Shown in pieces: positions 23,501 through 26,500 of a stretch of 64,000 nt of DNA. Each line of letters starts with the position of its first letter. Positions within the stretch are counted from its first letter, which is position 1. Origin of the DNA: Escherichia coli (GTDB lineage: Bacteria; Pseudomonadota; Gammaproteobacteria; Enterobacterales; Enterobacteriaceae); NCBI RefSeq assembly GCF_017348835.2, contig NZ_CP071375.1, one strand, 5' to 3'. The position numbers were made by a program.

Positions 23501-26500
23501 GGTTGTTTCGCTTGTTGACTCAGCGTTTTGCTTTTCTGACTCAGGGCGGAGCAGCACCAGAAACGCCAAATCCGCGCCTGCCACCACTCGATTCCGGCAT
23601 TCTTGGCGGCTACATTGCGCCCGATAATCTCACCATCACGTTATCGGTGGGTCACTCATTGTTTGATGAGCGCTTTGGCCTTGCGCCACAGATGCCAAAA
23701 AAGCTGCAGAAGATGACGCGTTTCCCCAACGACTCGCTGGATGCGGCGTTATGCCATGGTGATGTGTTGCTACAAATTTGCGCCAACACCCAGGACACGG
23801 TGATCCATGCTCTGCGCGATATCATCAAACACACGCCGGATTTGCTCAGTGTGCGCTGGAAGCGGGAAGGGTTTATTTCCGATCACGCAGCGCGTAGTAA
23901 AGGCAAAGAGACGCCGATTAATTTGCTGGGTTTCAAAGATGGCACTGCCAATCCCGATAGCCAGAATGATAAGTTGATGCAAAAAGTGGTGTGGGTAACG
24001 GCAGATCAGCAGGAGCCTGCGTGGACAATCGGTGGCAGCTATCAGGCAGTACGCTTGATTCAGTTTCGAGTGGAATTTTGGGACAGAACGCCGCTGAAAG
24101 AACAACAGACGATTTTTGGCCGTGATAAGCAAACCGGTGCGCCGCTGGGAATGCAGCATGAGCATGATGTGCCTGATTACGCCAGCGACCCGGAAGGGAA
24201 GGTGATCGCGCTGGACAGCCATATCCGGCTGGCGAATCCCCGCACGGCGGAGAGTGAGTCCAGCCTGATGCTGCGTCGCGGCTACAGTTATTCGTTGGGG
24301 GTCACCAACTCCGGACAACTGGATATGGGGTTGCTGTTTGTCTGCTACCAACACGATCTGGAAAAAGGCTTCCTGACAGTACAAAAAAGGCTCAATGGCG
24401 AAGCGCTGGAGGAATACGTTAAACCTATCGGCGGCGGTTATTTTTTTGCGCTGCCGGGAGTGAAGGACGCGAACGATTATCTCGGAAGCGCATTATTGCG
24501 GGTTTAATGTTTTTAGGCGGATGAGGCATTTGTGTGCAGATGCCTGATGCGGCGCTTGCGATGCTTATGATGCCCACAATCGGTGCGGGTTTGGTAGGCT
24601 GGATCAGGCGTTCACGCCGCATCCGGCGATCGTGCGTTGATGCCTGATGCGACGCTTGCGCGTCTTATCATGCCTACAATCGGTGCGGGTTTGGTAGGCT
24701 GGATAAGGCGTTCACGCCGCATCCGGCGTTCGTGCGCTGATGCCTGATGCGACGCTTGCGCGTCTTATCATGCCTACAATCGGTGCGGGTTTGGTAGGCT
24801 GGATAAGGCGTTCACGCCGCATCCGGCGTTCGTGCGCTGATGCCTGATGCGACGCTTGCGCGTCTTATCATGCCTACAATCGGTGCGGGTTCGGTAGGCT
24901 GGATAAGGCGTTCACGCCGCATCCGACGTTCGTGCGCTGATGCCTGATGCGACGCTTGCGCGTCTTATCATGCCTACAATCGGTGCGGGTTCGGTAGGCT
25001 GGATAAGGTGTTCACGCCGCATCCGGCGTTCGTGCGCTGATGCCTGATGCGACGCTTGCGCGTCTTATCATGCCTACAATCGGTGCGGGTTTGGTAGGCT
25101 GGATAAGGCGTTCACGCCGCATCCGGCGTTCGTGCGCTGATGCCTGATGCGACGCTTGCGCGTCTTATCATGCTTACAATCGGTGCGGGTTTGGTAGGCT
25201 GGATCAGGCGTTCACGCCGCATCCGGCGATCGTGCACTGATGCCTGATGTGAATCCTGCTGAAAGCACACAGCTTTTTTCATCTCTGTCATCACTCTGTC
25301 ATCTTTCCAGTAGAAACTAATGTCACTAAAATGGTGTTTTATAGTTAAATATAAGTGAATATATTGTTGCAATGAATGCGAGATCTGTTGTACTTATTAA
25401 GTAGCAGCGGAAGTTCCCGGCAGTGATAGTCAGTCACTATGGAGATCGCGGATGGTAACGTCCTGTACTGGACATGTTTTAGATAATCAACGCGCCACCA
25501 CTCGCGGAGTTTTCTCCTCCGGTAGTCATCTCGTCACTTTGCATTTTCAACCTCATCCTTTCTTTTCATGTGTTACCGACGCCGTAAACGGTGCGCGTAG
25601 CCGTTTTTCGGCATTTTATCCAAAAGCAAACTATGGCTTACAAGGAAGCCAACCCTCTGATGTTCGTGCGCATAATCGCGCTGCCAACGGCGCGTGTGAT
25701 GAATACAAACAACTCAAGGTGCTCTCCATGGGAAGACAAAAAGCAGTGATCAAAGCTCGTCGCGAGGCAAAACGTGTGCTGAGACGGGATTCGCGCAGCC
25801 ATAAGCAGCGTGAAGAAGAATCGGTCACCTCGCTTGTGCAGATGAGCGGCGTAGAAGCCATTGGTATGGCCCGCGACAGTCGCGATACCTCGCCCATCCT
25901 CGCGCGAAATGAAGCGCAATTGCACTATCTGAAGGCTATTGAGAGTAAGCAGCTGATATTCGCTACGGGCGAAGCCGGGTGCGGAAAAACCTGGATCAGC
26001 GCAGCAAAAGCGGCAGAGGCCCTGATACATAAGGATGTCGACAGGATTATCGTCACCCGTCCAGTTCTGCAAGCCGATGAAGATCTTGGCTTCTTACCTG
26101 GAGATATCGCAGAAAAGTTTGCTCCCTATTTTCGCCCGGTATACGACGTGCTGGTCCGGCGCTTAGGGGCTTCCTTTATGCAGTACTGCCTGCGACCGGA
26201 AATAGGGAAGGTGGAAATTGCGCCGTTCGCCTATATGCGTGGACGTACCTTTGAAAATGCAGTCGTCATTCTTGACGAGGCGCAGAATGTGACTGCCGCG
26301 CAAATGAAAATGTTTTTAACCCGCCTCGGGGAGAACGTGACGGTTATCGTCAACGGTGATATCACGCAATGCGATTTACCTCGCGGCGTGCACTCCGGAT
26401 TAAGTGACGCACTGGAACGTTTCGAAGAAGATGAAATGGTCGGGATCGTCCGATTCGGTAAAGAGGATTGCGTACGTTCGGCACTTTGCCAACGTACGCT

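What the first reader, a model, noticed from the sequence alone, without database searches (positions are those of the whole stretch)
24541..25250. Exactly periodic 7-copy BIME array between efeB and phoH
Seven near-identical 100-bp units in perfect register, each made of two inverted REP palindromes, form an unusually long and regular array. BIMEs can bind IHF and gyrase and act as transcript stabilisers or insulators; this one lies between a Fur-regulated and a Pho-regulated operon. Copy number is likely strain-variable.
Basis: seen in the sequence. Interest (0 to 1): 0.3.

Follow-up and report, generated by a model that had tools for sequence, protein, structure and literature searches.

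The report
Seven-unit BIME-2 repeat array
This is a well-known kind of E. coli intergenic repeat, a BIME-2 cluster of REP hairpins: about 99% of strains carry one 100-bp unit between efeB and phoH, this strain carries seven in tandem, and that is an ordinary, already-described type of polymorphism.

Summary
Window 24539-25249 holds seven 100-bp units plus an 11-nt stub, in exact register with no indels. It lies between efeB and phoH, 35 bp upstream of the phoH Pho box.

Each unit is a Z2-type REP, a 16-nt linker, an inverted Y-type REP and a 14-nt linker. That is the published definition of a BIME-2. Six copies match Rfam naRNA4, the unit of K-12's REP325 array, above threshold.

The length and regularity are family traits, not peculiarities of this locus. 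REP325 has period 100 with 5.8 copies. Five other loci have periods of 100-101, with 4.6-7.3 copies and no indels.

Among 5,426 complete E. coli genomes, about 44 carry 2-8 units here and nearly all the rest carry one. The 7-unit allele occurs in one pig-associated clone.

There is no IHF site, no coding potential and no intrinsic terminator.

The array most likely arose by unequal exchange between repeat units. It most likely acts as an efeUOB 3'-UTR attenuator and stabiliser, and probably as a gyrase site, as shown for REP325 and other BIME-2 elements. These functions are inferred, not tested here.

Verdict: a real, correctly identified and already-known kind of element. Interest is low.

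The parts
23236..24507 (+). efeB, the last gene of efeUOB; its transcript runs into the array
   Evidence: NCBIfam TIGR01412, E 5.5e-186. No terminator-like site lies between its stop codon and phoH.
24510..24538 (+). Lead: remnant of an inverted Y REP (internally deleted) plus a linker, i.e. a partial unit on the left edge
   Evidence: It aligns to unit ends at 72-78% identity. In strains N96, Z0117EC0005 and MFDS1022581 the same position holds a complete inverted Y REP.
24539..25238 (+). Seven 100-bp BIME-2 units (u1-u7). Within each unit, positions 4-39 are the Z2 REP, 40-55 the S linker, 56-89 the inverted Y REP, and 90-100 plus the next unit's 1-3 the l linker. Example for u2: Z2 24642-24677, S 24678-24693, inverted Y 24694-24727, l 24728-24741.
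   Evidence: Compared with the REP325 units of K-12, Z2 is 35/36 identical and Y is 32/34 identical.
25239..25249 (+). Stub: the first 11 nt of an eighth unit (l-linker end plus Z2 start, GATGCCTGATG), forming a direct repeat with every unit start
   Evidence: K-12 has the same stub after its single unit.
24597..25174 (+). Six in-phase matches to Rfam RF02564 (naRNA4), each spanning inverted Y, l linker and the next Z2. Starts: 24597, 24697, 24797, 24897, 24997, 25097.
   Evidence: 70.4-76.1 bits against a gathering score of 59.5. The alignment shows two hairpins. Minus-strand scores fall below threshold.
25285..25302 (+). phoH Pho box (CTGTCATCACTCTGTCAT), 35 bp downstream of the array
   Evidence: Exact match; 0.03 expected by chance in the window. 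A promoter-like site follows at 25304-25332.
25452..26516 (+). phoH, the downstream co-directional gene
   Evidence: NCBIfam NF007827, E 4.8e-154.

Best explanation
The feature is a BIME-2 element: alternating Z2 and Y REP palindromes joined by short linkers. Almost every E. coli has one 100-bp unit at the efeB-phoH locus; here it has been tandemly amplified to seven units.

Origin (inferred). The single-unit allele is already bracketed by partial copies, a remnant inverted Y REP on the left and an 11-12-bp Z2 stub on the right. Out-of-register pairing of sister copies can therefore add or remove whole 100-bp units by unequal recombination or replication slippage. Once there are two or more units, exchange becomes easy and keeps the interior units alike while the edge units drift. 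A contribution from the REP-associated transposase TnpA_REP (RayT) is possible.

Action (inferred by analogy). efeUOB and phoH are co-directional and no intrinsic terminator separates them, so efeUOB transcripts enter the array and fold into about 13 stable REP hairpins. By analogy with REP325, these hairpins would block 3'-exonucleolytic decay of the upstream efeUOB mRNA. They would also attenuate read-through, partly via Rho, before the Pho-controlled phoH promoter. On DNA, the seven Y REPs are probable gyrase binding and cleavage sites. The six extra units most likely only strengthen these local effects, and the expansion may be close to neutral.
For: Identity
- The unit anatomy is read directly from the sequence.
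- Z2 is 35/36 and Y is 32/34 identical to the REP325 units, which Qian et al. describe as Y + Z2 motifs (PMC4550694).
- There are six above-threshold naRNA4 matches.
- The BIME-2 definition (z2 + y, short linkers, multiple tandem copies, strain-variable number) is taken from PMC3333891.

Family-typical form
- REP325 has period 100 with 5.8 copies and no indels.
- ybaQ-copA is 101 x 7.3, ybcF-purK 100 x 6.1, rayT-flhA 101 x 4.6, mhpT-mhpE 101 x 5.4 and yjjV-yjjW 101 x 4.8.

Origin
- K-12's single unit is flanked by the direct repeat GATGCCTGATGC.
- An allelic series of 1, 2, 3, 4, 6, 7 and 8 units is always in exact 100-bp steps.
- TB06052 has 4 units on immediate flanks identical to the window's (0/300 and 0/190 differences).
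- In the window, edge units diverge (9 and 4 differences) while interior units differ by at most 2.
- Unit variants are reshuffled and shared between arrays: window u5 = A5 u4 = TW11681 u4.

Action
- There are no terminator-like sites and no promoter-like sites inside the array.
- REP hairpins fold at -14.8 (Z2) and -12.3 to -17.3 (Y) kcal/mol.
- REP325 in the same gene geometry reduces downstream expression about 8-10-fold, stabilises the upstream mRNA and yields a ladder of hairpin-ended transcripts (bioRxiv 10.64898/2026.03.23.713779).
- Gyrase cleavage sites are over-represented in BIME-2 elements, preferentially in y REPs (PMC6379681).
- BIME-2 elements lie at the borders of supercoiling regions (PMC10592627).
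Against: - No expression, RNA-end or gyrase data exist for this locus. Nothing was found in the literature or in the supplements held.
- The REP325 study stresses that REP effects depend on context and that REPs do not uniformly change mRNA half-lives, so transfer by analogy is uncertain.
- About 99% of strains manage with one unit, and the expansions are rare and scattered. This fits near-neutrality as well as it fits function.
- Sequence alone cannot separate RecA-type unequal exchange, slippage and TnpA_REP-mediated amplification.
- Because the lead is itself a decayed unit, the single-unit state could be a contraction of an older multi-unit array rather than the ancestral state.
Confidence: 0.72

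Rival explanations
1. The array acts mainly on DNA, not RNA. It is a cluster of strong, transcription-independent gyrase sites that serves as a topological insulator between the efeUOB and phoH transcription units. This is compatible with the best explanation; only the emphasis differs.
For: Gyrase cleavage sites are over-represented in BIME-2 elements, mostly in y REPs, and persist or increase when transcription is blocked (PMC6379681). Most BIME-2 sites lie between supercoiling regions, and an inserted BIME-2 blocked the spread of supercoiling (PMC10592627). This array has seven intact Y REPs.
Against: Only 'a subset' of BIME-2 elements carries cleavage sites. This locus is not listed in the supplement text that was held. 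Nothing was tested here.
Confidence: 0.35
2. The expansion is a neutral or selfish by-product. Units were added by unequal exchange or by the REP-associated transposase TnpA_REP, and the extra six units have no measurable effect on the cell.
For: About 99% of genomes have one unit. Expanded alleles are rare, scattered over at least three flank or lead haplotypes, and occur in every size from 2 to 8 except 5. TnpA_REP cleaves and joins BIME strands in vitro, and amplification models have been published (PMC3333891). One array sits directly beside rayT.
Against: Expanded alleles are kept unchanged within clones. The two 7-unit isolates differ by roughly one mismatch in 23.4 kb (from the bit scores) yet have identical arrays, and six genomes share the same 6-unit match scores. 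Hairpins are intact in 13 of 14 REPs. REP325, of similar size, has large measured effects.
Confidence: 0.35
3. The array is a gene cluster for nucleoid-associated RNAs (naRNA4-like) that, together with HU, bridge cruciform DNA and condense the chromosome.
For: Six sense-strand matches to Rfam naRNA4 lie above the gathering score. Qian et al. 2015 reported HU binding and DNA condensation by naRNA4 from REP325 (PMC4550694).
Against: A 2026 study that includes an author of the original work found no nucleoid change on REP325 deletion or over-expression, no stable HU-DNA-RNA ternary complex and no REP-REP Hi-C contacts (bioRxiv 10.64898/2026.03.23.713779). The Rfam model in effect recognises any Y-l-Z2 BIME-2 unit; another match lies at window 134-212.
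Confidence: 0.06
4. The array is an IHF-binding BIME (BIME-1, also called RIP or RIB).
For: As a class, BIMEs include IHF-binding members (PMC3333891).
Against: IHF binds the long L linker of BIME-1, which pairs z1 with y and occurs as single copies. Here the linkers are 16 and 14 nt, the partner REP is Z2, no Z1-like sequence was found (using a consensus from memory), and no WATCAANNNNTTR site lies in 24510-25250.
Confidence: 0.03
5. The array is an assembly artefact that inflated the repeat count.
For: Tandem repeats are prone to mis-assembly.
Against: The same 7-unit array, base for base, is present in two separate complete assemblies. Other assemblies show a coherent series of 2-8 units that share internal SNPs.
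Confidence: 0.01

Closest known systems
REP325 of E. coli K-12 (BIME-2 array between yjdM and yjdN; source of naRNA1-6, Rfam RF02564)
   Same: It has the same 100-bp period with no indels and 96% matches. The order in the transcribed direction is the same, Z2 then inverted Y. The REPs are nearly identical (35/36 and 32/34). Both lie between two co-directional genes. Six units here pass the naRNA4 gathering score.
   Different: It is at a different locus, with 7 units against 5.8. The linker sequences differ: l is GTTCGTGCGCTGAT here and AACGGTGCCGACT there. The S-linker core GGTGCGGG lies in the opposite orientation relative to Z2 and Y. No experimental data exist for this array.
BIME-2 family (Gilson/Bachellier classification, as summarised in PMC3333891)
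   Same: It is built from z2 + y REPs in alternating orientation with GTAG/CTAC feet. It has short linkers, is extragenic, occurs as multiple tandem copies, and its copy number at a locus differs between strains.
   Different: No defining feature differs. The 7-unit allele is at the upper end for this locus; the maximum seen is 8.
The single-unit BIME-2 at efeB-phoH in K-12 and about 99% of E. coli
   Same: It has the same position, lead, unit and stub. The K-12 unit differs from the window consensus at 3 of 100 sites.
   Different: It has one unit instead of seven, so the intergenic region is 600 bp shorter.
BIME-1 / RIP / RIB elements (IHF-binding)
   Same: They are also built from a pair of inverted REPs and often lie at the 3' ends of transcription units.
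   Different: They use z1 rather than z2, have a long conserved L linker carrying an IHF site, and occur as single copies. None of these features is present here.

Membership tests
BIME-2 | Built from y-type and z2-type REPs | tested here: met
   Z2 is 35/36 and Y is 32/34 identical to the Y/Z2 motifs of REP325 (motif names from PMC4550694). Approximate matches to Y and Z2 consensus sequences recalled from memory: 7 Y on the minus strand, 6 Z2 on the plus strand, 0 Z1.
BIME-2 | REP and inverted REP alternate, with GTAG/CTAC at the foot of each palindrome | tested here: met
   Every unit reads ...GCCTAC-AATCGGTGCGGGTTTG-GTAGGC.... Y matches occur only on the minus strand and Z2 matches only on the plus strand.
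BIME-2 | Short linkers (S and s/l/r), not the long L linker with an IHF site | tested here: met
   The linkers are 16 nt and 14 nt. No IHF consensus lies in the array.
BIME-2 | Multiple tandem copies, with the number varying between strains at a locus | tested here: met
   There are 7.2 copies here and 1-8 copies across 5,426 genomes.
BIME-2 | Extragenic location | tested here: met
   It lies between the efeB stop (24507) and the phoH Pho box (25285). No frame is stop-free for more than 51 aa.
BIME-2 | Bound and cleaved by DNA gyrase in vivo | not testable with these tools
   This is shown for other BIME-2 elements (PMC6379681). This locus is absent from the supplement text held.
naRNA4 (Rfam RF02564) | Covariance-model score at or above the gathering threshold (59.5 bits) | tested here: met
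   Six plus-strand matches at 70.4-76.1 bits, with full model coverage 1-77.
naRNA4 (Rfam RF02564) | Discrete transcript that binds HU and condenses DNA | not testable with these tools
   This was claimed for REP325 and was not reproduced in the 2026 preprint.
BIME-1 / RIP / RIB | z1 REP plus an L linker with an IHF site, as a single copy | tested here: not met
   No Z1 match, no IHF consensus, and seven tandem copies.
CRISPR array | Short identical repeats separated by unique spacers | tested here: not met
   The whole 100-bp unit repeats. Units u2, u3 and u6 are identical throughout, so there are no unique spacers.
Intrinsic (Rho-independent) terminator | GC-rich stem-loop followed by a T-run | tested here: not met
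   There are 0 terminator-like sites in 24300-25600. The GCTG...CAGC-TTTTTT motif at about 25258-25279 has only a 4-bp stem (-4.4 kcal/mol centroid; z -1.15 for the whole 46-nt stretch folded).

The most novel reading that the evidence does not exclude
The efeB-phoH locus offers a natural allelic series of 1, 2, 3, 4, 6, 7 and 8 BIME-2 units. In places the series sits on identical immediate flanks: TB06052 has 4 units and this strain has 7. If unit number quantitatively sets the read-through from iron-regulated efeUOB into phoH, the stability of efeUOB mRNA, or gyrase loading, the array would be a naturally occurring 'dial' of the kind proposed for REPs in 2026. A second open point is that every BIME-2 array examined keeps a 100-101-bp period despite unrelated linker sequences. 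That could reflect a length constraint, for example from gyrase wrapping or the amplification mechanism, rather than shared descent alone.
Probability: 0.25. Interest if true: 0.35.

Novelty: already known. Interest (0 to 1): 0.12.

Why it matters
It matters little in itself. BIME-2 arrays and their strain-to-strain copy-number variation have been described since the 1990s, and a near-twin array (REP325) has been dissected experimentally.

The practical value is modest. The survey gives a clean copy-number spectrum for one locus across 5,426 complete genomes: about 0.8% are expanded, alleles are stable within clones, and every change is a whole 100-bp unit. It also identifies strains that differ in unit number on identical immediate flanks. 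Those strains could be used to test whether REP dosage tunes termination, mRNA stability or gyrase loading.

The result also warns annotators of two things. Rfam naRNA4 hits mark generic BIME-2 units. Short-read assemblies may collapse such arrays.

Tried and rejected
- IHF site. A search for WATCAANNNNTTR found 4 hits in the window and none in the array, so the IHF/BIME-1 reading was rejected.
- Intrinsic terminator. None is predicted between efeB and phoH. The short GCTG/CAGC + T6 motif just after the array is too weak.
- Coding potential. No ORF crosses the array, and the longest stop-free stretch is 51 aa.
- Whole-array RNA fold. It gives one giant nested hairpin (-409.6 kcal/mol, z -8.2). 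I treat this as a consequence of Z2 and inverted Y being mutually complementary, not as a realistic co-transcriptional structure.
- Literature on this exact locus. A search for BIME + phoH/efeB returned only chemistry noise.
- Supplements. Those of the gyrase map hold no phoH, efeB or ycdB entry, and those of Ton-Hoang 2012 are not held.
- First copy-number attempt. The plain full-length query could not separate classes, because BLAST pieces from one unit tile the whole query. This was solved by E-value-thresholded queries.
- Array-only query. It also picked up other BIME-2 loci at 80-88% identity. These were identified and excluded.
- Not attempted: covariation analysis of the REP stems (too little variation among 30 distinct units to be informative), and scans of non-E. 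coli genome collections.
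Full report
**Observation**

Tandem Repeats Finder reports window 24525-25249 as period 100, 7.2 copies, 96% matches and 0% indels, with score 1303. An independent repeat finder gives start-to-start spacings of exactly 100 throughout.

Reading the sequence in register from the motif GATGCCTGATG, the units are u1 24539-24638 to u7 25139-25238. An 11-nt stub of an eighth unit follows at 25239-25249. A 29-nt lead precedes the array at 24510-24538.

Units u2, u3 and u6 are identical. u4 and u5 each differ from the consensus at two sites, u7 at four and u1 at nine.

The flanking genes are as stated:
- efeB is 23236-24507 (TIGR01412, E 5.5e-186).
- phoH is 25452-26516 (NF007827, E 4.8e-154).
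- efeO and an intact efeU lie upstream.

All of these are on the + strand. The same array, base for base, is present in two separate complete assemblies, strains PE164 and F2_81. This rules out an assembly artefact.

**Anatomy**

Each unit has four parts:
- a 36-nt palindrome, GCCTGATGCGACGCTTGCGCGTCTTATCATGCCTAC;
- a 16-nt linker, AATCGGTGCGGGTTTG;
- a 34-nt palindrome in the opposite orientation, GTAGGCTGGATAAGGCGTTCACGCCGCATCCGGC;
- a 14-nt linker, GTTCGTGCGCTGAT.

The first palindrome is 35/36 identical to the Z2 motif of K-12's REP325 array. The second is 32/34 identical to REP325's inverted Y motif. Qian et al. name those motifs Y and Z2 (PMC4550694).

As RNA, the Z2 hairpin folds at -14.8 kcal/mol and the Y hairpin at -12.3 to -17.3 kcal/mol in every unit. 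The exception is the Z2 of u1, which has decayed to -5.3 kcal/mol. The array therefore carries 13 intact REP hairpins, one decayed REP, a remnant Y REP in the lead and a Z2 stub.

Other negative findings on the anatomy:
- No reading frame stays open for more than 51 codons.
- No promoter-like site lies inside the array, and no terminator-like site lies anywhere between efeB and phoH.
- No IHF consensus lies in the array.

An exact Pho box (CTGTCATCACTCTGTCAT) sits at 25285-25302, 35 bp beyond the array. It is followed by a promoter-like site.

**Classification**

Ton-Hoang et al. (PMC3333891) summarise the accepted classification. BIME-1 pairs z1 with y across a long L linker that often carries an IHF site, and occurs as single copies. 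BIME-2 pairs z2 with y across a short S linker, flanked by s, l or r, and occurs as multiple tandem copies whose number differs between strains at a locus.

Every sequence-level criterion for BIME-2 is met here, and none for BIME-1.

Rfam agrees independently. Six in-phase + strand matches to RF02564 (naRNA4, modelled on the Y-l-Z2 unit of REP325) score 70.4-76.1 bits against a gathering score of 59.5. The alignment shows the two expected hairpins.

**Is it unusually long and regular?**

It is not, for the family. REP325 in K-12 has period 100, 5.8 copies, 96% matches and no indels.

Five other BIME-2 arrays surfaced in the survey:

| Locus | Period | Copies |
|---|---|---|
| ybaQ-copA | 101 | 7.3 |
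| ybcF-purK | 100 | 6.1 |
| rayT-flhA | 101 | 4.6 |
| mhpT-mhpE | 101 | 5.4 |
| yjjV-yjjW | 101 | 4.8 |

All five have no indels. The linker sequences differ between loci, but their lengths (S 16-17 nt, l 13-14 nt) do not. The exact 100-bp register is therefore a family trait.

**Copy number across E. coli**

A plain search showed that most genomes, including K-12, span about 800 bp where the window spans 1401 bp. That corresponds to one unit instead of seven.

To count expanded alleles, I searched with the array plus 100 bp of unique flank on each side. I set an E-value limit that only a flank plus at least two units can reach. Of 5,426 complete genomes, 47 passed. Three of these were other loci.

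The remaining 44 (0.8%) fall into these classes:

| Units | Genomes |
|---|---|
| 2 | 15 |
| 3 | 8 |
| 4 | 12 |
| 6 | 6 |
| 7 | 2 (PE164, F2_81) |
| 8 | 1 (A5) |

No 5-unit allele was seen. An array-only search gave the same 44 genomes at 90% identity or better.

I confirmed the unit count by reading the sequence in eleven loci. Every one keeps the exact 100-bp register. The count of 44 is a lower bound for diverged 2-unit alleles. A few hundred genomes also have a more divergent structure at this locus: only 4,968 of 5,426 cover at least 80% of the query.

**History of the array**

Expanded alleles sit on at least three different lead and flank haplotypes, so expansion has happened more than once.

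Several observations point to slow change and shared ancestry:
- TB06052 has four units on immediate flanks identical to the window's (0 of 300 and 0 of 190 differences).
- The 4-8-unit arrays share specific unit variants in different positions and combinations. Window u5 = A5 u4 = TW11681 u4, and window u1 = TW11681 u1. The A at unit position 88 is linked to a C at position 54 in the window but not in TW11681.
- PE164 and F2_81 are one clone: both are 100.0% identical to the window over 23.4 kb, with bit scores about one mismatch apart. The next genome is 98.8% identical.
- Six genomes share the same 6-unit match scores.

Copy number is therefore stable on the timescale of clonal lineages, changes in whole units, and is reshuffled by exchange between units.

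The single-unit allele is already bracketed by partial copies. On the left is a remnant inverted Y REP, which is complete in some strains. On the right is the direct repeat GATGCCTGATG(C). Out-of-register pairing therefore has a substrate.

Divergent edge units with homogeneous interior units are the classical signature of unequal exchange. This origin is an inference. Sequence alone cannot exclude replication slippage, or the TnpA_REP-mediated amplification proposed by Ton-Hoang et al.. The single-unit state could also itself be a contraction.

**How it most likely works**

Shown here:
- efeUOB and phoH are co-directional.
- No intrinsic terminator separates them.
- The array would be transcribed in the sense that matches naRNA4.
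- It would form about 13 stable hairpins.

Inferred by analogy: REP325 occupies the same geometry between yjdM and yjdN. A 2026 preprint found that deleting it raises downstream yjdN about 8-10-fold and lowers upstream yjdM. It also found that REP325 is expressed as a ladder of hairpin-ended transcripts, and that attenuation is partly Rho-dependent (bioRxiv 10.64898/2026.03.23.713779).

I therefore expect this array to do two things. It should protect the 3' end of efeUOB mRNA. It should also limit read-through from the operon into phoH, whose own promoter lies just beyond the array. From general knowledge, efeUOB is Fur-regulated.

On DNA, gyrase cleavage sites are over-represented in BIME-2 elements, mainly in y REPs and independently of transcription (PMC6379681). 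BIME-2 elements also lie at the borders of supercoiling regions (PMC10592627). Seven Y REPs are thus a probable multi-site gyrase target.

The nucleoid-condensing naRNA/HU model was not reproduced, and I rate it unlikely.

Whether six extra units matter is unknown. The rarity and scatter of expansions fit near-neutrality at least as well as selection.

Other known REP effects come from my own knowledge and were not checked here: 3'-exonuclease blocking (Newbury et al. 1987), BIME attenuation (Espeli et al. 2001), and translation down-regulation by REPs within about 15 nt of a stop codon (Liang et al. 2015). On the last point, the first stable stem here starts about 17 nt after the efeB stop. 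That is borderline, and it is the same in single-unit strains.

**Verdict**

- The element is BIME-2, so IHF does not apply.
- Its regularity and length are typical of the family.
- Copy number varies but is one in about 99% of strains.

Both the kind of element and its polymorphism are already known. Interest is low. The most that could come of it is use of the natural 1-8-unit series to test whether REP dosage tunes termination, mRNA stability or gyrase loading.

Noticed in passing
window 26318-26511 (- strand): There is a strong match (188 bits, gathering score 100) to Rfam RF02855 Ysr251, a Yersinia antisense sRNA family. It lies antisense to the 3' end of phoH.
   Followed up: no
window 134-212 (- strand): Another, single BIME-2 unit matches naRNA4 at 82.5 bits. 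This shows the Rfam model marks generic Y-l-Z2 units.
   Followed up: no
window 6096-6138 (- strand): There is a match to Rfam RF02751 ES036 (CssrF) sRNA just above threshold, 38.5 bits against 37.6.
   Followed up: no
window 21206-22045 (+): efeU is intact here: 279 aa, full-length match to EfeU/Ftr1 models. In K-12 MG1655 it is annotated as a pseudogene. The operon that feeds transcripts into the array is therefore presumably functional in this strain.
   Followed up: partly
window 25452-26516 (+): The phoH start differs between annotations. The 354-aa ORF matches the NC_000913 annotation (1065 bp), but PGAP records call a 789-bp gene. The PhoH model covers only residues 101-353.
   Followed up: partly
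window 24678-24693 vs L013 (REP325) and L017 (mhpT-mhpE): The S-linker core GGTGCGGG of this array appears as its reverse complement (CCCGCACC, CCCGCGCC) in REP325 and the mhp array, relative to the same Z2-then-inverted-Y order. The linker therefore occurs in both orientations between the inverted REPs.
   Followed up: partly
L013-L018 and window 24539-25249: Seven BIME-2 arrays at seven loci all have a period of 100 or 101 bp with no indels, although their linker sequences differ. The S linker stays at 16-17 nt and the l linker at 13-14 nt.
   Followed up: partly
L004, L005 and the window: All three genomes with 7 or more units (PE164, F2_81, A5) come from pigs. PE164 and F2_81 are one clone, about one mismatch apart over 23.4 kb. 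The sample is too small to read anything into it.
   Followed up: partly
L016 1500-1960: A 4.6-unit BIME-2 array lies immediately downstream of rayT, the REP-associated tyrosine transposase gene, in strain Z1323CEC0003.
   Followed up: no
L009 and L012 (lead region before unit 1): In strains N96 and MFDS1022581 the lead holds a complete inverted Y REP plus an 8-bp tandem duplication (CGTGCGCT or CGTGCGTT). This is the only indel seen in or next to any array.
   Followed up: no
L023 (UPEC 536) and L022 (O26:H11 11368): Some single-unit alleles depart from the 100-bp form. The O26 unit is 99 bp, and UPEC 536 lacks the GATGCCTGATG unit boundary and has a different right linker.
   Followed up: no
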